Origin: an uncultured Candidatus Rokubacteria bacterium
GTDB lineage: Bacteria > Methylomirabilota > Methylomirabilia > Rokubacteriales > CSP1-6
Direction of reading: 5' to 3'
Assembly (NCBI GenBank): GCA_963789955.1
Contig: CAWBMV010000001.1
Coordinates: forward strand, 320,001-384,000
DNA: 64,000 nt
Below, piece by piece: positions 9,131 through 36,923 of this stretch. The notes under the pieces are model-generated. The model was not told the origin of the DNA. It worked only from the letters and a program-made list of their open reading frames with translations, and did not search any database. Both the position numbers and the translations under genes were made by a program. Each line of letters begins with the position of its first letter. Position 1 is the stretch's first letter.

Positions 9131-9877
9131 TCATGTGTTGGGATCGTCCCCGTAGATCGCGCGCACGACCGTCGGCGTCACGGCGGCGGGTGGGCCGTCG
9201 AACGCGACGCGGCCCTGGCGGAAGCCGACGATGCGCGTCGCGTAGGCCAGCGCGGTTTCGAGCTGGTGCTGGCTGACCACGAGCGTGAGCCCCTGCTCGG
9301 TGTTGATGGCCTTGAGGATGTCCATGATGCTGCTGGTGAGCGCGGGATCGAGGCTGGCCGTGGGCTCGTCGGCCAGGATGACCTCGGGCCGTTGCGCCAG
9401 CGCGCGGGCGATCGCGACCCGCTGCTGCTCGCCGCCCGATAGCTTATCGGCGCGCCGCTCGGCGAGGTGAGCGAGGCCCACCTGGTCCAGACACGCGCGA
9501 GCCAGCTCGCGGTCGGCCTGCGGAAAGCTCCCGAACACGCTGGCGATCGGCGGCACGTAGCCGAGCCGTCCCGCGAGGACGTTGTCGATCGCCGAGGCGC
9601 GCCGCACCAGGTTGAACTGCTGAAACACCATGCCGATCTGCCGGCGAACCTCGCGGACCGCGACCGCGCCGGCGCCGGTGACGGCGCGGCCGGCCACGCG
9701 GATCGTTCCCGCGGTCGGCTCGACGAGCCGGTTCAGGCAGCGCAAGAAGGTGGTCTTGCCGGCGCCGCTCCGGCCGAGGACGACGACGAACTCGCCGCGG
9801 CCGATCGAGAGATCGACGCCGTGCAGCGCGACCGTCGAGGGCGGCAGGACGACACGCAGCCCCGCGACCTCGATCAT
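9131..9877 (-). CDS. phnC: Phosphonate ABC transporter ATP-binding protein
   Basis: [44 protein letters not shown]. Confidence 0.9.
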
Positions 9878-9897
9878 CGGAGAGGAGGCGGCGGAGG

Positions 9898-10775
9898 TCA
9901 GCGCGGCTTGACGCCGAGCAGCTCGACCGCTGCGCGCACCGGGTCGTAGTCGCGGTCGTCGGCCGGCGCGAACCCGTCGATTTCGTAGAGGCGGCGCAGC
10001 AGCGCCGCATAGGCCGGCGCGCGAATCTGCAGGAGGGCCTCGCGCACCTTCGCGAACGTCGCCGGATCGAGGCCCGGGCGCGCGGCGATCCCGGCCTCCG
10101 GGATCTCGGGCGTCTCCGCGATATAGATGATGCGCTCGCGCTCGACGGGATCGGTCAGATACTGCTCGCGGGCCATGTCGAACGAAGCGAGCGCATCGAC
10201 GTGACCGTTGAGCAGGGCTCGCATCCCGGCGTCATGCGCGCCCGCGAACAGCACCTCACGAAAGAACGTCTTCGGGTCGCGGTCCTTCACGAGGCCGCGC
10301 TGGATCAAGAGGACCATCGGGTAGGTGTACCCCGACGAGCTGGCCGGATCGATGAACGCCATCGTCTTGCCGCGCAGATCCTCGAGCGTCTTGAGCCCGG
10401 ACTCCTTGCGGACGTAGATGCGCGAGGTGAACGAGCTCTTACCGTGCCAGAGGTTGCGAACGACGATCGTCGCCTTCGCCTCGCGGCTCGCCAGCACGTA
10501 GCCGACGGGGTGCACGAACGCGAGGTCGGCCGTGCGGTTGCGCAGCGCTTCGATCACCGCGGCGTAGTCCGAGGCGACGGTCACGCGCACCGGGATGCCC
10601 GACGCAGCTTCGTCAGCACCTTCGCGAACTCGTCCCCGGTCGCCAGCAGATCGGTCGGCTTCTGCGAGGGCGTGAGGACCAGGTGCAGGCCGTCGGCGGC
10701 GAGCGCGCTGCCCGGCGCTATGGCGCTCAGCGCGAGCGCCCACAGCGTCAGGCACGCAAGAGTGCGGGCGATCAT
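9898..10775 (-). CDS. phnD: Phosphate/phosphite/phosphonate ABC substrate-binding protein (frameshifted)
   Basis: Signal peptide MIARTLACL...; DYAAVIEALR, FIDPASSSGY, GAHDA, DDRDYDPVR. Confidence 0.85.
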
Positions 10776-29439: not shown

Positions 29440-30143
29440 CCGCTTCGCCCGTGCGCAAGCAGATCGTCGCGATGGGCGGCGGCAGCTTCAGCGCCGAGCC
29501 GGACGGCTCGGCCCTGGACGCCTATGTCCTGGCCCTGGCGGGTAAGCCGCGCCCGAAGATCTGCTTCGTCCCGACCGCGAGCGGCGACGCACCGGAGTAC
29601 GCGACGAAGTTCTACGATTCGTTCGCCCGCCGGGCCGAGGCGAGCCACCTCTATCTCTTCGGACGCCCGCGCACGGACATGGCGAGCCTTCTCGCGAGCC
29701 AGGACATCATCTACGTCGGCGGCGGGAACACCGCGAACATGCTCGCGGTGTGGCGCGTGCACGGCGTGGACCGAATGATGCGTGACGCATGGGAGCGCGG
29801 CGTGATCCTGACCGGTGTCAGCGCCGGGATGATCTGCTGGTTCGAGTGCGGGGTGACCGATTCGTTCGGGCCGCTCGCCGCGCTCCGCGACGGCCTCGGC
29901 TTTCTCCCGGGCAGCGCGTGCCCGCACTACGACGGCGAGAAGGACCGGCGGCCCACGTATCAGCGCCTCGTCCGCGGCGGCTTTCCGGCCGGCTACGCCG
30001 CGGACGACGGCGCCGCGCTGCACTTCGTCGACACCGACCTGGTGGCCTGCGTCGCCTCGCGGCCGACGGCCGGCGGCTACCGGGTGCGCGCCGAGAGCGA
30101 CACGGTCACGGAAACGCCGCTCTCTGTTCGTCTCCTCGGCTGA
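29436..30143 (+). CDS. Peptidase E (S51 family)
   Basis: AMGGG, FVPTASGD, YVGGGNT, GVSAG (Ser nucleophile), CPHYD. Confidence 0.85.
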   Translation: MTASPVRKQIVAMGGGSFSAEPDGSALDAYVLALAGKPRPKICFVPTASGDAPEYATKFYDSFARRAEASHLYLFGRPRTDMASLLASQDIIYVGGGNTANMLAVWRVHGVDRMMRDAWERGVILTGVSAGMICWFECGVTDSFGPLAALRDGLGFLPGSACPHYDGEKDRRPTYQRLVRGGFPAGYAADDGAALHFVDTDLVACVASRPTAGGYRVRAESDTVTETPLSVRLLG

Positions 30144-30295
30144 AGCGGGCGAATCTCGAACACGACACGGCTTCGTTCGTCACGGCGCGCCCGGCTCCTC
30201 AGGGGCTCGCCGAAATAGTCGATCAGGCGGTCGATGCGCCGTGCCGAGTCTCGCTTGAATGGCGTGAACCGATCGAGCACGACCATGGTAGTCAT
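30077..30295 (-). CDS. Small hypothetical protein under a candidate sigma-54 promoter
   Basis: MTTMVVLDRFTPFKRD...; upstream TGGCTCAGGCATGGCA (30321-30336, minus) and two GTTYC-N5-GRAAC boxes; overlaps the 3' end of the peptidase E gene. Confidence 0.4.
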   Translation of the reverse strand: MTTMVVLDRFTPFKRDSARRIDRLIDYFGEPLRSRARRDERSRVVFEIRPLQPRRRTESGVSVTVSLSARTR

Positions 30296-31640: not shown

Positions 31641-32987
31641 CTAGCGATCGATTCCGTATTCTTTGAGCTTCCGCCAGAGCGTCGTCCGCCCGATCCCGAG
31701 CGCTTCCGCGGCGCTGGAGTGATTGCGCCCGAAGCGCTCCAGGGTCTGCGAGAATGTGCACGCGCTCGGTTTCGGCGAGCGTCGTCTGGCGCGGAAGCTG
31801 AGGCGAAGGGCCGAGCAGCAGTCCCGCCGACACGTGCGGCGGCAGATCCTCGGGCTCGACGCTGTCGCGGCGAGCCAGGATCGCGGCGCGCTCGATCGCG
31901 TTCTCGAGCTCGCGCACGTTCCCGGGCCAGGGGTAGCGGAGCAGCCGCTCGACCGTCGCGGGCGACAGACGCAGCTCGCGGCCGAGCTTGCCGCCGGCCC
32001 GGGCGAGGAAATGCTCGGCCAGCGCCGGAATGTCTTCGCGGCGATCGCGCAGCGGCGGCAGCGCGACCTGGATGACGTTCAATCGATAGAAGAGGTCTTC
32101 GCGGAAGGTCCCCTGCGCGATGAGCGACGCGAGATCGCCGTGCGTGGCCGCGATCACGCGCACGTCGATCGTGCTCGACTGGGTCGCGCCAAGCCGCCGC
32201 ACCTCGCCGCTCTGCAGCGCGCGCAGGAGCTTCACCTGGAGCGCGGCCGGCATCTCGGCGATCTCGTCCAGGAACAGCGTGCCGCCGTCGGCTTCCTCGA
32301 AGAGCCCGAGCTTGGAGACCGCGGCGCCGGTGAACGCGCCGCGCATGTAGCCGAAGAGCTCCGACTCGAGCAAGGTCTCGGGCACGGCGCCGCAGTTCAC
32401 GGCCACGAACGGCCGCGCCGCGCGCGGGCTCGCGTGGTGGACGGCCTTGGCGATGACCTCCTTGCCGGTGCCGGATTCGCCCTGGATCAGCAACGTCGCG
32501 TCCGTCGGCGCCACGCGCTCGACGAGGTCGAGGACGGTGTGCATGGCCGACGACTGCGCGATGAGCCCGGGCAGGCCGTAGCGCTCCCGGAGCTGGGCGC
32601 GCAGATTCTCGTTCTCACGGCGGAGCGCGCGCCCGGCCAGCGCCTTGTCGATCCGGTGATAGAGCTCGTCGGGCTCCTGTCCCTTCTCGAAATAGTCGAG
32701 CGCGCCGAGGCGGATCGCTTCCTTGGCCGACTTCCACTCGGCGTACGCGGTCAGCAGGATGACCTCGGTTTCCGGCGCGTGGGCCTTGGCCGCTCGCAGC
32801 ACGTCGAGGCCATCGCCGTCGGGCATGCGCAGATCGGTCACGACGAGATCGAACACTTCGTCGGAGAGCTTGGCCGTCGCCGACGTGACCCCGTCGGCCT
32901 CCACGACGCGGTGCCCCGTTTCCGCAGCAGCAGCGCCAGGGTGCTCCGCGCCGACGGCTCGTCGTCCACGACCAGGAGATGCGCCAT
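31641..32987 (-). CDS. sigma-54-dependent response regulator (REC-AAA+-Fis HTH, NtrC family; frameshifted)
   Basis: [71 protein letters not shown]. Confidence 0.9.
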
Positions 32988-34330
32988 CTCAGGTAGCCTC
33001 GACCGGGCAGCTCGACCGGGAACAGGAGCGTCACCCGCGTGCCCCGGCCCAGCTCGGAGTCGATCTCGATGCGGCCCCCGTGCGCGCCCATGATGCGCTC
33101 GGCGATGGTGAGGCCGAGCCCGCTGCCGTTCGGCTTGCCCGTGTAGAACGGCTCGAACACGCGCGAGAGGTTCTCGGCGGAGATCCCGCCGCCGGTATCG
33201 CTGACCGAGAGCGCGACGTCGCCGTTCTGACGATTGACCTCGAGCGAGAGCCGGCCGCGTCCGTTCATCGCTTCGACGGCGTTGAGCGCCACGTTCCAGA
33301 GCACCTGGGTGAGCTGGTCGCGGTCGAACGAAAAGCGCGGGACGGCCGGATCGACCGCCACGCGCACGTCGACGCGCGGTGCGCGCGAGCGATCCTCGCG
33401 GATGAGCGAGCTCACGTGCTGGACGACCTCGCGGATATCGCCGGGCGCGCGCCGCGCCTCCTGAGGCCGCGCGAACTGGAGGAAGTCGGACAGGATGCGG
33501 TTGAGCCGGCGCGCCTCGGTCCGGAGCGCGCCGAGCGTCGACGTGCGCTCGTCGGGGGTGAGTCCCATGTCGTCGGTCAGGAGCGCGGTGGCGTTCAGGA
33601 TGGCCGCGAGGGGATTGCGGATCTCGTGCGCCATGCCGGCGGCGAGCTCGCCCGCCGTGGCCAGGCGCTCGGCTTCTCGCAGGCGCGCGTGGAGCCGCTC
33701 GCTCTCGCTGCGGGCTCGCTCGAGCACCATGATGATCACCGCGAAGGTCGACAGGAAGTAGAGGAGGATGAACACCGCGTGCACCGCGAGGTATCCGGGC
33801 GATCCCGGCACGATGTTCACGAACTGGGTGGCGATGCGATGAACGCCCCAGAGGGTGAGGAATCCGGCCAGGAGCCGCTCACCCCGAAATCCCGTCATGC
33901 GCGTTTGCGCGGGCCAGAAGAGCAAGCCGGCGGCCATCTGCGCCATGCCGAGGGCAATGCCCACGGCGCGCTGAGTCTCGTCGCCGCTGCCCATGTCGCC
34001 GGCGAGGGTCAAGCCGACCGCGGCCGCGGCGCCGATCACGAGGTCGCGTGCGTGCAGTCGATAGCCCCACCGGTGCGCGAACGCGGCCGCGAGGGTCAAG
34101 CCGACCGCGGCGACCGTCGCGAGATCGGTGACGAAGCTCGGATGATCGACGCCCAGCACCAGCACGTCCACGAGCCTGAGACCTTTGGACAAGGTGTAGG
34201 CGCCCCAGGCCAGGAGCAAGTACTGGAAGAAGCGAACCCGGTGCGACTGGTAGAGGTACGCGAAGATGAGCAGCTGAACCGCGAACGCGACCGTCGAGAC
34301 GAACGTCAGGATCAGCGGCGCCGGCATCAC
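32988..34330 (-). CDS. Sensor histidine kinase with about 7 TM helices and no large periplasmic domain
   Basis: Seven hydrophobic segments in the first ~215 aa; H-box MAHEIRNPL; N box NVALNAVEA; DTGGG, FEPFY, GSGLGL. RBS GGAGG. Confidence 0.9.
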
Positions 34331-34356
34331 AACCTCCAGTTCAGTCTACGCTGTCC

Positions 34357-34372
34357 CGCAAATCGTGTGCCA
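34357..34372 (-). promoter_or_regulatory. sigma-54 promoter for the kinase-regulator operon
   Basis: Minus-strand TGGCACACGATTTGCG, a near-perfect TGGCAC-N5-TTGC consensus. Confidence 0.8.
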
Positions 34373-34413
34373 CGCGAGCCCCGCGTCGAATCACGCGAAA
34401 TCGTCGCGCGCAC

Positions 34414-34514
34414 GTTTCACTTCGAAACGACGTTCCACTGCGGAACTCGCGATCGCGCCGTCGGTGCGCGACCGAGCATTGATTCACGGTGAACCCGGCG
34501 TTTCGCCTTGGAAC
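34414..34514. promoter_or_regulatory. Three GTTYC-N5-GRAAC boxes (candidate enhancer for the local bEBP)
   Basis: GTTTCACTTCGAAAC 34414, GTTCCACTGCGGAAC 34432, GTTTCGCCTTGGAAC 34500. Confidence 0.65.
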
Positions 34515-34568
34515 CATCGCGCGCGCTCGCCGGGCGAGTGTTCTCAATGATTTCAGGAAGTTCACGTC

Positions 34569-34584
34569 TGGCACGTCCTCTGCT
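34569..34584 (+). promoter_or_regulatory. sigma-54 promoter for the repeat-peptide gene
   Basis: TGGCACGTCCTCTGCT (GG-N10-GC), then RBS GAGGGAGG and ATG 34631. Confidence 0.75.
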
Positions 34585-34630
34585 TTAACGCGTTGCGGCT
34601 CGCACAAAACGATTGAGGGAGGACGAAGAC

Positions 34631-34863
34631 ATGAAGCGCACAGGCACACTCGCAGTTTTCCTGGCGGCATCACTCGCGCTGCTCGCTGGTGTCGCGAGCG
34701 CATCGCTCCGGCGGCGGAGGACATCCAGGCGCCGCGATCGTCCAACCAGGACATTCAGGCTCCGCGTGCCGGCAACGAGGATCTCCAGGCGCCGCGCTCG
34801 GACAATCAGGACATCCAGGCGCCGCGCATCGAGAGCGAAGACGTTCAGGCGCCGCGCGGCTGA
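34631..34863 (+). CDS. Small secreted precursor (~77 aa) with five tandem (E/Q)D(I/L/V)QAPR repeats; one indel near 34700
   Basis: Signal peptide MKRTGTLAVFLAASLALLAGVAS.., then in the shifted frame IAPAAEDIQAPRSSNQDIQAPRAGNEDLQAPRSDNQDIQAPRIESEDVQAPRG*. Confidence 0.8.
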
Positions 34864-34875
34864 TGGTCGAGTCGG

Positions 34876-34900
34876 GCGAGCGAGGTTGAGCCTCGCTCGC
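34876..34900 (+). terminator. Stem-loop after the peptide gene
   Basis: GCGAGCGAGG-TTGAG-CCTCGCTCGC; no U-tract. Confidence 0.45.
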
Positions 34901-34926
34901 TCGGCACACCTCTCGCGAGATGATGG

Positions 34927-35124
34927 ATGGCGCAGCGTATGGCGTGGATGGATTCGAACGACTATTTCCTGATCGTGGAGACTGCCAGAGATCGGATCGA
35001 GAGCCTCCTCTCGTCGACCGAGATCGCGATGGAGACGGCGGCGACGTCTGACGGCCGCCGCCCGACCGAGCCCGCGCACGTTTGTGACGTGCCGGGCTGC
35101 GCGCTCGTGCATCTGCCGGTGTAG
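34927..35124 (+). CDS. Small hypothetical protein with C-terminal HxCx4Cx3H
   Basis: 65-aa ORF; upstream CGGCACACCTCTCGCG (34902-34917, GG-N10-GC). Confidence 0.55.
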   Translation: MAQRMAWMDSNDYFLIVETARDRIESLLSSTEIAMETAATSDGRRPTEPAHVCDVPGCALVHLPV

Positions 35125-35380
35125 TCCGCGACAGCGGCGAGCGGGCTCGTCCCGCCTGACCAGAGCCCCGCCCATTTTTGTGACGTGCCGGGCCCGGCGC
35201 TCGGCCACTTGCCTGTTTGGTTGGCACGTCGTCGCGCGAAGAGCCAGCGCGGCTCAGCGGGCCGCCGGACGGATCGTCATTCCTGGCCGGACTTAGCGCC
35301 AAACGCCCCCGGGTGCGGCTCGTTGGCACGCGCCGTGCTCGCATGGGGCGCGTCGAACGAAGCCCGGGCAGGAGGCAACG

Positions 35381-35563
35381 ATGGATTGGTGGCGCGAGCT
35401 CGATGACGAAATCGTAAACTGCCTCGTCGGTCATGAATCGTTGACACCCGACGAGCTGAGCCAGAAGGTCGGCATGTCGACCGAAGCGGTGACCTCATTG
35501 CTCGGACGACTCGCGCAGGAAGGGAGAATCACCATCCTGCGAGTCGCGAGGACGTCCGGCTAG
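35381..35563 (+). CDS. Small winged-helix-like DNA-binding protein
   Basis: LTPDELSQKVGMSTEAVTSLLGRLAQEGRI; RBS AGGAGG; sigma-54 site TGGCACGCGCCGTGCT at 35324-35339. Confidence 0.7.
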   Translation: MDWWRELDDEIVNCLVGHESLTPDELSQKVGMSTEAVTSLLGRLAQEGRITILRVARTSG

Positions 35564-36923
35564 CACGGAGACAAAATTCCTCGCGGTGTCGTCGAGCTCG
35601 CAGGTCGCGGTCGCATCTCCTACCTGACAGAGGGCAGCGGCGCGCGGGCCGCGCTCCTGATCCACGGCTCGGGCATGAGCGCGCGCTCATGGGTGAACCA
35701 GCTGCCCCGCGAGTACCCGGGTGTCACGTTCTTCTTCCAGCCGGCGGACATCGTGAGCCAGATCCTGAACTTCGGGCTGCCGGCGCCGATCGACGTGCAG
35801 GTGATCGGATTCAATCAGCAGGCGACGCACGAGATCGCGCTCGAGGCCGCCGCCCGCATCTCGCGCATTCCGGGCGCGGCCGACGTGCACCTGCACCAGG
35901 TGGTCAACGCGCCGTCGCTTCAAGTCAACGTCGACCGGTCGCGGCTGGCCGAGCTCGGCCTGACCCAGCGCGACGTGGCCAACAACGTCCTGGTCACCTT
36001 GAGCTCGAGCGCGGTCGTGGCGCCGAACTACTGGTCGGATCCGCGGAGCGGCATCAACTATATCGTTGCGGTGCAGACGCCGCAGAGCCGCGTCGATTCC
36101 GTCAACAGCTTGATGAGCACCTCGGTGACGCCGGTGACCGCGGGGCCGCCGCAGCTCTTGAGCAATCTGGCGACGCTCGGAGCGCCGAGAAGTGCCGGCC
36201 GTCATCAGCCACTCGAACGTGCAGCCGGTGTTCGACGTGTACGCCAACGTGCAGGATCGCGACCTCGGCAGCGTCGCCTCCGCCGTCCAGCGGATCATCG
36301 CCGACCTCCGGCCCAAGCTGCCGCCGGGCCACACGATCGCGCTGCGCGGCCAGGTGCAGAGCATGAACTCGGCGTTTCTCCGGCTGGGGTTCGGCCTGAT
36401 CTTCGCGGTGCTGCTGGTCTATCTGCTCATGGTGGTGAACTTCCAGTCGTGGCTCGACCCGTTCATCATCATCACCGCGCTGCCGGCCGGGTTCTGCGGC
36501 ATCGTGTGGATGCTCTTCATCACGCACACCACGTTCAGCGTGCCCGCCCTGATGGGCGCCATCATGAGCGTCGGCGTCGCCACCGCGAACAGCATCCTGA
36601 TGGTGACCTTCGCGAACGATCAGATGCTCGAGGGCCACGACTCGCGCAGCGCCGCGCTCGCGGCCGGCGCGACGCGGCTGCGTCCGGTCATGATGACCGC
36701 GCTGGCCATGATCATCGGCATGCTGCCGATGTCACTCGGTCTCGGCGAGGGCGGCGAGCAGAACGCGCCGCTCGGGCGCGCGGTGATCGGCGGTCTGTCG
36801 GTGGCGACCTTCGCCACGCTCTTCCTGGTGCCCCTGGTCTACAGCGTCCTGCGGCGCCGTCCGCCGAAGCGGGACTTTCTGGCCGATGACGAGCCTCACG
36901 GCTCGCCCGTACCTCAGGAGTGA
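35564..36923 (+). pseudogene. Chimeric remnant: alpha/beta-hydrolase 5' fragment fused to the 3' ~40% of an RND (AcrB-family) permease
   Basis: ISYLTEGSG...LLIHGSGMSARSWVNQL joins PREYPGVTFFFQPADIVSQILNFGLPAPIDVQ at about 35703; RND C-terminal motifs VATANSIL, RLRPVMMT, PLGRAVIGG. Confidence 0.7.

What the first reader, a model, noticed from the sequence alone, without database searches (positions are those of the whole stretch)
31641..34863. Candidate peptide quorum-sensing system: secreted DIQAPR-repeat precursor opposite a 7-TM histidine kinase and sigma-54 activator
Seen: gene 34631-34863 encodes a Sec-type signal peptide followed by five 10-aa units, AAEDIQAPR-SSNQDIQAPR-AGNEDLQAPR-SDNQDIQAPR-IESEDVQAPR-G. 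The 30-bp units differ at synonymous positions in the core (GAC/GAT, ATC/ATT, GCG/GCT, CGA/CGT/CGC) while the D-[ILV]-QAPR core is conserved and the spacers vary, which indicates selection on the peptide. It is transcribed back to back with a kinase whose sensor is about 7 TM helices and an NtrC-family regulator, and both directions have sigma-54 promoters. Established: intramembrane multi-TM kinases sense secreted peptides in Firmicute Agr/Com systems, and some Phr/PapR-type precursors are exported and then cleaved. Inference: the precursor is cut after Arg into several copies of a signalling peptide that activates this kinase, which in turn induces both the peptide and the receptor (positive feedback). 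I do not recognise a described system of this form with a sigma-54 output in a probable diderm. The ORF caller splits the gene because of one indel, so it is easy to miss.
Basis: partly seen in the sequence, partly recalled or inferred. Interest (0 to 1): 0.92.

Follow-up and report, generated by a model that had tools for sequence, protein, structure and literature searches.

The report
Repeat-peptide signal loop in Rokubacteria
A soil bacterium of the uncultured Rokubacteria carries a small gene for a signal peptide plus five copies of a short motif, back to back with a seven-helix membrane sensor kinase and a sigma-54 activator; relatives keep this trio together, and it likely forms an undescribed peptide-signalling feedback loop in a double-membraned bacterium, though binding of the peptide to the sensor is untested.

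Summary
The indel is an assembly error: short-read contigs of 3 of 4 runs add one base behind 34707, and relatives carry the intact gene. The organism is a Rokubacterium. The precursor lies opposite this kinase in 33 of 35 short-form genome loci and 69 of 69 metagenome loci, and stays linked in two other gene orders. A rare palindrome (GTTYC-N5-GRAAC) plus sigma-54 promoters marks a small regulon: kinase operon, precursor, a third small gene. The sensor matches no Pfam family; its model is a GPCR-like 7-helix bundle with conserved Lys/Arg/His on the outer side. Against the simple picture: QAPR-type repeats occur in 141 of 158 family genomes but the sensor in only 55; many repeat genes are longer ones with a different enhancer; three distant kinase-bearing genomes show no repeats; no Arg-specific protease was found; co-variation is suggestive but not significant on independent pairs. 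The divergent sigma-54 layout equals ZraP/ZraSR, where the exported protein is not an inducer. Best reading (about 50%): an autoinducing peptide loop that taps a family-wide peptide signal. The scan noted the long repeat protein before on other DNA, not this kinase link. No paper found.

The parts
34631..34863 (+). Short repeat precursor: Sec-type signal peptide, five D-[ILV]-QAPR units, final Gly; split by a one-base assembly error near 34707
34618..34622 (+). Ribosome-binding site GGAGG of the precursor
   Evidence: sequence
34569..34583 (+). Sigma-54 -24/-12 box facing the precursor
   Evidence: conserved in 32 of 35 short-form loci
34358..34372 (-). Sigma-54 -24/-12 box facing the kinase-regulator operon
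   Evidence: conserved in 26 of 35 short-form loci
34414..34514 (.). Three palindromes GTT[TC]C-N5-G[GA]AAC (34414, 34432, 34500): inferred binding sites of the activator
   Evidence: 15 sites in 6.77 Mb, only two clusters; present at 35 of 35 short-form and 17 of 19 long-form kinase loci
33700..34330 (-). Sensor domain of the kinase, 7 predicted helices, no Pfam or NCBIfam family
32990..34330 (-). Histidine kinase (about 441 aa in relatives; HisKA + HATPase_c); 3' end blurred by indels
31641..32987 (-). Sigma-54 enhancer-binding response regulator (receiver, AAA+, helix-turn-helix), frameshifted by assembly indels
34864..34915 (+). Strong hairpin after the precursor stop (-34.6 kcal/mol), no U-tract
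34927..35124 (+). Conserved 65-aa ORF behind the precursor (D-A-N-E-Y motif), unknown; takes the precursor's place behind the promoter in L041 and L076
30311..30410 (-). Second palindrome pair (30376, 30396) and sigma-54-like box TGGCATCGAAGTTGA
30077..30295 (-). Small ORF with R-R-I-D-x-x-I-D-Y-F-G motif: third inferred target of the activator
   Evidence: motif in 18 of 54 kinase loci

Best explanation
The short gene encodes a signal peptide plus five QAPR-type units and shares an enhancer palindrome and sigma-54 promoters with the adjacent kinase-activator operon; the units are likely released by proteolysis in the periplasm, likely bind the outer pocket of the seven-helix sensor, and would then switch on the activator, which is predicted to induce the precursor, the receptor operon and one or two small genes (positive feedback). 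Shown: gene anatomy, synteny, promoter and enhancer conservation, family-wide spread of the motif. Strongly inferred: export by Sec, and control of the precursor by this activator. Inferred and untested: cleavage, its register (after Arg, giving x-D-I-Q-A-P-R, or after the Ile/Val/Thr as an HtrA-type protease would prefer), binding and activation. Because nearly all family members also make long precursors with 7 to about 45 such units from another sigma-54 enhancer, the kinase is best read as one optional receiver of a family-wide signal, and the short precursor as its local booster.
For: Linkage: 33 of 35 short-form genome loci, 69 of 69 metagenome loci with enough upstream DNA, control 8 of 3000; kept in two further gene orders, convergent behind the regulator in L021/L062 and co-oriented upstream in G245. 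Enhancer: tandem palindrome in 38 of 158 family genomes, 37 of them among the 55 with the sensor. Function sits in a short motif, not a fold: 1 to 9 units, variable spacers, D/E-V/I-Q-A-P-R core in 129 units of 33 precursors; repeats disordered in the long protein's model. The sensor has no soluble outer domain, as in AgrC (PMC8534201, passages), resembles GPCR bundles (Z 12.4-14.7, rmsd 3.5-4.6, about 200 residues aligned), and keeps K49 (52 of 53 rows), R165 (51 of 53) and H184 (50 of 53) in the predicted outer half, which fits an acidic peptide. In genus g42 short and long precursors both change Gln to Asn/Asp (5 of 5; none of 26 others), and the same five sensors alone carry T13M and T72P: one event. 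Within a genome, short and long cores agree at the hydrophobic position more than within-genus shuffles (0.542 against 0.399, 23 genomes, p<1e-4), without longer shared DNA than with congeners. The two short-form loci that lack the short gene lie in genomes with long precursors.
Against: Repeats are far more widespread than the sensor: 141 of 158 against 55 of 158. Long precursors carry a different upstream motif and not this palindrome. Only 1 of 19 long-form (PAS-containing) kinase loci had a precursor in the fetched DNA (several loci are truncated), and G050, G060 and G040 have the sensor but no repeat hit; their sensors keep K49 and R165, so these residues are not specific to this peptide. 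No processing enzyme is in the locus; the protease beside 58 of 112 long precursors is HtrA-like with no trypsin-type Asp in the S1 loop, and its catalytic Ser is Asn in G240. Co-variation does not survive a test on independent pairs (1 to 4 pairs per trait, p=1); held-out genomes gave 4 concordant, 2 partial and 3 discordant cases. Two close relatives (L224, L225) have units ending in Leu or Phe instead of Arg. ZraP shows that an exported protein opposite a sigma-54 two-component operon need not be an inducer.
Confidence: 0.5

Rival explanations
1. The precursor is only an output: a ZraP/Spy-like periplasmic effector (for example a disordered, acidic decoy substrate or activator of HtrA/DegP-type proteases) that the two-component system induces in response to another signal, such as an envelope or small-molecule cue.
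For: Same layout as ZraP/ZraSR, divergent sigma-54 promoters under one activator (PMC4987338, passages); kinase and regulator score best with AtoS/ZraS and AtoC/NtrC/ZraR models, all below cut-off. Repeats family-wide and mostly unlinked to the kinase. Long precursors sit directly before an HtrA-like protease in 58 of 112 genomes. In the distant locus L068 the divergent promoter drives an unrelated exported protein. Kinases without repeats exist.
Against: ZraP-type proteins are folded helical chaperones (recalled); this product is 20 to 100 residues of Pro-containing repeats, down to a single unit (L042, L037, L038), hard to square with a bulk effector. The g42 motif change is matched by sensor changes (one event). 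The precursor follows the kinase through three gene orders.
Confidence: 0.3
2. The precursor or its units bind the sensor but dampen it: a negative-feedback accessory protein like ZraP, CpxP or MgrB.
For: Same synteny and regulon evidence; the title of a paper cited in PMC4987338 calls ZraP a repressor of ZraSR (reference list seen); loss of the short gene in L041 and L076 with promoter and kinase intact is tolerated.
Against: Multi-copy short cores behind a signal peptide are typical of amplified ligands (Phr duplications, PMC5199041, passages); nothing in the sequence tells the sign of the effect.
Confidence: 0.13
3. The gene is a multi-core precursor of a modified peptide (RiPP) matured by an unlinked enzyme.
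For: Repeated cores with a conserved motif; M16 peptidases and a protease flank many long precursors.
Against: No modifying enzyme among the ORFs at the window locus; a Sec signal peptide instead of a leader; no Cys, Tyr or Trp in the window's cores; no family hit.
Confidence: 0.05

Closest known systems
Agr (AgrD/AgrC/AgrA), Fsr and Com peptide-pheromone two-component loops of Firmicutes
   Same: Works like: an exported peptide and a multi-helix kinase without a soluble outer domain; AgrC has six helices and binds the peptide at the membrane domain (PMC8534201, passages). Autoinduction of peptide and receptor (recalled).
   Different: Kinase core is HisKA/HATPase_c of the AtoS/ZraS/NtrB type; the regulator is a sigma-54 activator, not LytTR; 7 helices; Sec signal peptide, no Cys for a thiolactone, no double-glycine leader; many cores per precursor; diderm host.
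ZraP / ZraSR (and CpxP / CpxAR)
   Same: An exported protein transcribed divergently from a kinase-activator operon, both from sigma-54 promoters controlled by that activator (PMC4987338, passages).
   Different: ZraP is a zinc-binding periplasmic chaperone; here the product is a short unfolded repeat with no family hit, and the sensor is intramembrane rather than a periplasmic domain between two helices (recalled for ZraS).
Rap-Phr (RRNPP) prepeptides with duplicated cores
   Same: Signal sequence followed by several identical or diverged copies of a 5-6-residue autoinducer, cut during secretion (PMC5199041, passages).
   Different: Phr is re-imported and binds a cytoplasmic Rap receptor; no such receptor gene lies beside this precursor, whose partner is a membrane kinase.
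7TM sensor domains of bacterial kinases (HisKA_7TM, 7TMR-DISM_7TM, MASE3/4)
   Same: Seven-helix membrane sensor in front of a kinase core; the nearest named Atlas clusters belong to these families, at 0.79-0.82 only.
   Different: No member of 17 reaches a Pfam cut-off; best 7TMR-DISM_7TM E=0.19 in 1 of 17.
Eukaryotic polyprotein precursors read by GPCRs (fungal alpha-factor, neuropeptides); recalled
   Same: Signal peptide, many copies of a short peptide separated by basic residues, a seven-helix receptor.
   Different: Analogy only: 5-13% identity in structural alignments to GPCRs, output by phosphotransfer, no dibasic sites.

Membership tests
Agr/Com/Fsr peptide two-component systems | Multi-helix membrane sensor without soluble extracytoplasmic domain | tested here: met
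   7 helices with short loops, pLDDT 85.5
Agr/Com/Fsr peptide two-component systems | AgrC/ComD-type kinase core and LytTR-type (or NarL-type) regulator | tested here: not met
   HisKA + HATPase_c; sigma-54 activator domain
Agr/Com/Fsr peptide two-component systems | Precursor with thiolactone Cys/Ser core or double-glycine leader and a dedicated processing gene in the locus | tested here: not met
   Sec-type signal peptide, no Cys, no processing gene among locus ORFs; the rest of the genome was not searched for AgrB
Agr/Com/Fsr peptide two-component systems | Peptide binds and activates the kinase | not testable with these tools
   Needs a bench test; co-folding was not available
ZraP/ZraSR | Divergent sigma-54 promoters for an exported protein and a kinase-activator operon | tested here: met
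ZraP/ZraSR | Exported protein of the folded Spy/CpxP/ZraP family | tested here: not met
   No such Pfam or NCBIfam hit for an intact relative; Pro every 8-13 residues
ZraP/ZraSR | Kinase and regulator above the ZraS/ZraR model cut-offs | tested here: not met
   204 bits against 479; 353 against 760 (the regulator query was frameshift-truncated)
Rap-Phr / RRNPP | Sec-exported prepeptide with short, sometimes duplicated cores | tested here: met
Rap-Phr / RRNPP | Adjacent cytoplasmic TPR receptor | tested here: not met
   Neighbours are a membrane kinase and a sigma-54 activator
HisKA_7TM / 7TMR-DISM_7TM / MASE sensors | Profile match above cut-off | tested here: not met
   0 of 17 members
HisKA_7TM / 7TMR-DISM_7TM / MASE sensors | Remote homology at fold level | tested here: inconclusive
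   GPCR-like bundle, Z up to 14.7; Foldseek no E<=0.001; Atlas 0.79-0.82
Multi-core RiPP precursor | Linked modifying enzyme | tested here: not met
   None at the window locus; the genome was not searched for unlinked enzymes

The most novel reading that the evidence does not exclude
Rokubacteria of this family run a hormone-like peptide language: exported polyproteins with 1 to about 45 copies of a genus-flavoured x-[DE]-[IVT]-[QN]-A-P-R unit are cut into peptides and read by a histidine kinase with a GPCR-like seven-helix sensor that drives sigma-54 transcription of its own receptor and booster precursor. This would be a peptide quorum-sensing circuit in an uncultured diderm soil lineage, built from protein families that none of the libraries searched describes.
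Probability: 0.42. Interest if true: 0.9.

Novelty: new variant of a known kind. Interest (0 to 1): 0.72.

Why it matters
Peptide-activated kinase loops are a Firmicute paradigm; a case in a diderm soil lineage with sigma-54 output, multi-copy precursors and a GPCR-like sensor would widen it and give a bacterial seven-helix kinase sensor a defined ligand. All parts are small and identified (peptide, receptor, enhancer, promoter), and natural variants (Gln against Asn peptides, with matched sensor changes) supply a built-in specificity test, so it can be tried in a heterologous host although the organism is uncultured. Even under the rival reading, the repeat proteins are a near-universal, unexplained hallmark of this family (141 of 158 genomes, 2 of 92 outside it).

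Tried and rejected
Artefact or non-coding repeat: rejected. Real frameshift: rejected, short-read contigs and 69 of 69 relatives are in frame. Sigma-54 box counts in the window alone: not above chance. Sigma-70 promoters and intrinsic terminators: none above chance. Foldseek on the sensor: no E<=0.001. Long precursor model: three helices (29-42, 138-153, 157-171) around disordered repeats, mean pLDDT 53.6, best Z 7.3, none at 8 or more, so no fold assignment; Atlas lists only unnamed Methylomirabilota/Rokubacteria clusters or minority Pfam labels. Gene conversion between short and long genes: no longer exact DNA match within a genome than with congeners. Arg specificity of the neighbouring protease: no supporting residue found; the S1-loop table matched only 11 of 38 loci and was not used. 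Activator of the long precursor: its upstream motif occurs once in this genome; other multi-helix kinases were listed but not tied to it. Tandem DxQAPR pattern in viral contigs: 0. RNA runs: contigs cover the precursor and the next ORF in X15, X17, X19 at depth 6-12, and collapsed repeat contigs of the long gene's type reach about 300 in X15; contigs cannot show strand, level or co-transcription, and DNA may be present, so this is not used as evidence. Profile comparison of sensor and precursor alignments: nothing. First permutation run failed on two empty rows and was repeated. Literature: DIQAPR gave 1 unrelated plant proteomics paper; DVQAPR/QDVQAP/EVQAPR/QAPRGQ gave 0; topic searches gave no description of the system (listings only). 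The library lacks most subscription papers, and supplements were not searched.
Full report
Observation. The window is G000:C1:320001-384000 of a 6.77-Mb, 68% GC assembly with many frameshifts. ATG 34631 starts a hydrophobic signal peptide; five cores D-[ILV]-QAPR and a final Gly-stop lie in another frame. Short-read contigs from 3 of the 4 DNA runs laid add one C behind 34707, and the closest relatives are in frame (L223-L225, L023), so the split is an assembly error. Among the window's five cores 17 codon pairs differ synonymously and 7 non-synonymously (of 60); among four spacers 3 and 18 (of 24). On the other strand lie a HisKA/HATPase_c kinase and a receiver/sigma-54 activator, both touched by further indels. 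Record titles of related loci name Candidatus Rokuibacteriota/Rokubacteria or Methylomirabilota in most rows; Rokubacteria are predicted diderms (PMC5712423, passages). An RpoN box is present in the genome.

Synteny. The kinase is in 15 of 16 congeners. Of 20 loci fetched, 16 had a close kinase with upstream DNA and all 16 had a divergent signal-peptide/repeat gene; 2 lacked upstream DNA, L020 had none, and L021 had it convergent behind the regulator. A wider scan gave 54 genome loci, partly the same genomes: 35 of a short-form clade (about 441 aa, support 100/100) and 19 of a longer form with an inserted PAS-like segment (label from my reading of the sequence, not from a profile hit). Short form: 33 of 35 have the divergent precursor (32 by the detector, plus L034 seen); L041 and L076 do not. 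Long form: 1 of 19 in the DNA fetched (L062), several loci truncated; G245 adds a third order, precursor upstream and co-oriented, and G135 has a short precursor with palindrome and sigma-54 box at a contig end. In metagenomes, the best 80 of 274 loci were returned; 11 had under 680 bases upstream and were dropped; 69 of 69 others have the in-frame precursor, against 8 of 3000 random windows. These loci are close kin, not independent.

Regulon. A palindrome GTT[TC]C-N5-G[GA]AAC occurs 15 times in the genome and clusters only at 34414/34432/34500 and 30376/30396. It lies within 300 bases of 35 of 35 short-form and 17 of 19 long-form kinases; sigma-54 boxes face the kinase in 26 of 35 and the precursor side in 32 of 35 (long form 13 and 1 of 19; background 2-3%). 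A tandem pair is found in 38 of 158 family genomes, 37 of which have the sensor; the exception is a simple tandem repeat in G240. The second cluster precedes a sigma-54-like box and a small ORF whose R-R-I-D-x-x-I-D-Y-F-G motif recurs in 18 of 54 loci. I infer that the activator binds this palindrome and induces its own operon, the precursor and this ORF; binding was not tested.

Sensor. The 210-residue domain has 79 relatives among 1.84 billion representatives, no Pfam or NCBIfam family, and unnamed Atlas neighbours. It is in 55 of 158 family genomes, as a rule once, and 3 of 92 other genomes of the phylum. The model has seven helices, pLDDT 85.5. The 50 rows of the wide structure search are GPCR or GPCR-like bundles, Z 12.4-14.7, rmsd 3.5-4.6; the tool warns that Z near 13 can be a common helical arrangement, and Foldseek gave no E<=0.001. 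With the kinase core inside, K49, H164, R165 and H184 fall in the outer halves of helices 2, 6 and 7 (inference); they are kept in 52, 46, 51 and 50 of 53 rows (L075 dropped for a frameshift), including kinases of genomes without repeats.

The peptide family is larger than the finding. The genome holds two more repeat genes, on C10 (8 units) and C30 (over 20): signal peptide, Cys helix, repeats, Cys helices; the model shows three helices around a disordered loop. A repeat profile hits 141 of 158 family genomes and 2 of 92 others; a strict tandem pattern 85 of 158 and 0 of 92. Long genes mostly have a sigma-54 box with a different upstream motif (GCAG-N2-TG[CT]C plus a second site) and not the palindrome. 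In 58 of 112 genomes the long gene lies within 600 bases upstream of a membrane-anchored HtrA-like protease; in 36 the listed protease is elsewhere and in 18 the listing was cut. That protease is also in 13 of 21 genomes of a family without repeats, shows no trypsin-type acidic S1 residue, and has Asn for the catalytic Ser in G240. HtrA-type enzymes prefer small hydrophobic residues (recalled; also noted in e1-1086507), which would cut D-I/V/T from Q-A-P-R; the P-R-G/S/T context resembles a thrombin-type site (recalled). The register is open. In 33 short precursors (129 units) the six-residue core is D/E (120), V/I/L/T (122), Q (116), A (120), then P-R (fixed by the search pattern), followed by G in 65; 14 of 33 end in P-R-G. 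Some long genes vary further (D-D-Q-A-S-R, Q-Q-E-A-P-R).

Co-variation. In 23 genomes with both genes, the hydrophobic position agrees more than in within-genus shuffles (0.542 against 0.399, p<1e-4), with no sign of gene conversion. Held-out genomes: G012, G024, G212, G237 concordant; G025, G166 partial; G002, G029, G245 discordant. In genus g42 both genes have Asn/Asp for Gln (5 of 5, 0 of 26 others), and only these five sensors carry T13M and T72P (V73I is also in L053 and L058). On a tree of 31 sensors there are only 1 to 4 independent pairs per trait, none in the opposite direction, p=1. This is a hint of shared constraint, not proof.

Mechanism and odds. A sensor with only a membrane pocket, a regulated exported gene whose information lies in a short multi-copy motif, and linkage through three gene orders point to an autoinducing loop (0.5). 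The wide spread of the motif fits if the kinase is an optional receiver of a family-wide signal; the two loci lacking the short gene lie in genomes with long ones. The same facts, and kinases without any repeats (G050, G060, G040, at most 150 candidates scored each), also fit a ZraP-like regulated effector (0.3) or inhibitor (0.13); ZraR controls divergent sigma-54 promoters of zraSR and zraP (PMC4987338, passages). A modified-peptide precursor is unlikely (0.05). Binding could not be modelled.

Comparison. It works like Agr/Com (PMC8534201, passages), has a precursor like duplicated Phr prepeptides (PMC5199041, passages) and the layout of ZraP/ZraSR, but fails membership of each. Database homologues of the precursor are unnamed or 'hypothetical protein' (64 hits). 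Searches for the motifs and topic found no description (listings only; subscription papers and supplements not covered). Earlier notes of this scan cover the long repeat protein in two other genomes, none this locus or the short gene.

Verdict: real and conserved, built from undescribed families, with a testable but unproven ligand-receptor link. New variant of a known kind; interest 0.72.

Noticed in passing
G000:C30, L002 9461-10450 (-) and 8005-9384 (-): Long repeat gene (over 20 AGQDIQAPR-type units between Cys helices) directly upstream of a membrane-anchored HtrA-like protease with a rhodanese-like tail, divergent from a pair of M16 peptidases; own sigma-54 box and enhancer-like motif whose activator is unknown.
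   Followed up: yes
G000:C10, L001 about 9625-10190 (-): Second long-type repeat gene (8 units), frameshifted, with no sigma-54 box or palindrome found upstream, next to a BON-domain gene.
   Followed up: partly
window 35381-35563 (+): 60-aa winged-helix protein (Pfam HTH_24 above cut-off) behind a further sigma-54-like box at 35324; conserved in 7 relatives' loci.
   Followed up: partly
L058 (632 bases before the kinase) and L197 (G245): A second tiny exported peptide, signal peptide plus about 12 residues ending in N-S-I-Q-x-x, next to long-form kinases of genus g58.
   Followed up: no
L064, L065, L129: ECF sigma-factor-like genes behind palindrome plus sigma-54 box at long-form kinase loci; similar genes flank a short repeat precursor in G209, which has no sensor hit.
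   Followed up: partly
L099, L100, L101, L153 (genus g35); L113 (G240): The protease next to the long gene has an altered active-site loop (E-A-G-T-S-G-G) where the repeats mostly carry Thr/Ser/Ala; in G240 the catalytic Ser is Asn.
   Followed up: partly
L068: In a Nitrospinota-labelled locus the same palindrome and divergent sigma-54 promoter drive an unrelated 139-aa exported protein with three Cys.
   Followed up: no
L039 and L062: Two short precursor genes at one kinase locus.
   Followed up: no
G000:C22 122539-124812, C6 374911-377052, C34 near 948586: Three other kinases with 7 or more N-terminal helices; candidates for a family-wide receptor of the long precursor, untested. About 30 sigma-54 activators are in the genome.
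   Followed up: no
window 35675-36923: RND transporter gene begins abruptly behind the winged-helix gene; relatives have about 3 kb more DNA here, so this is a deletion or mis-assembly.
   Followed up: no
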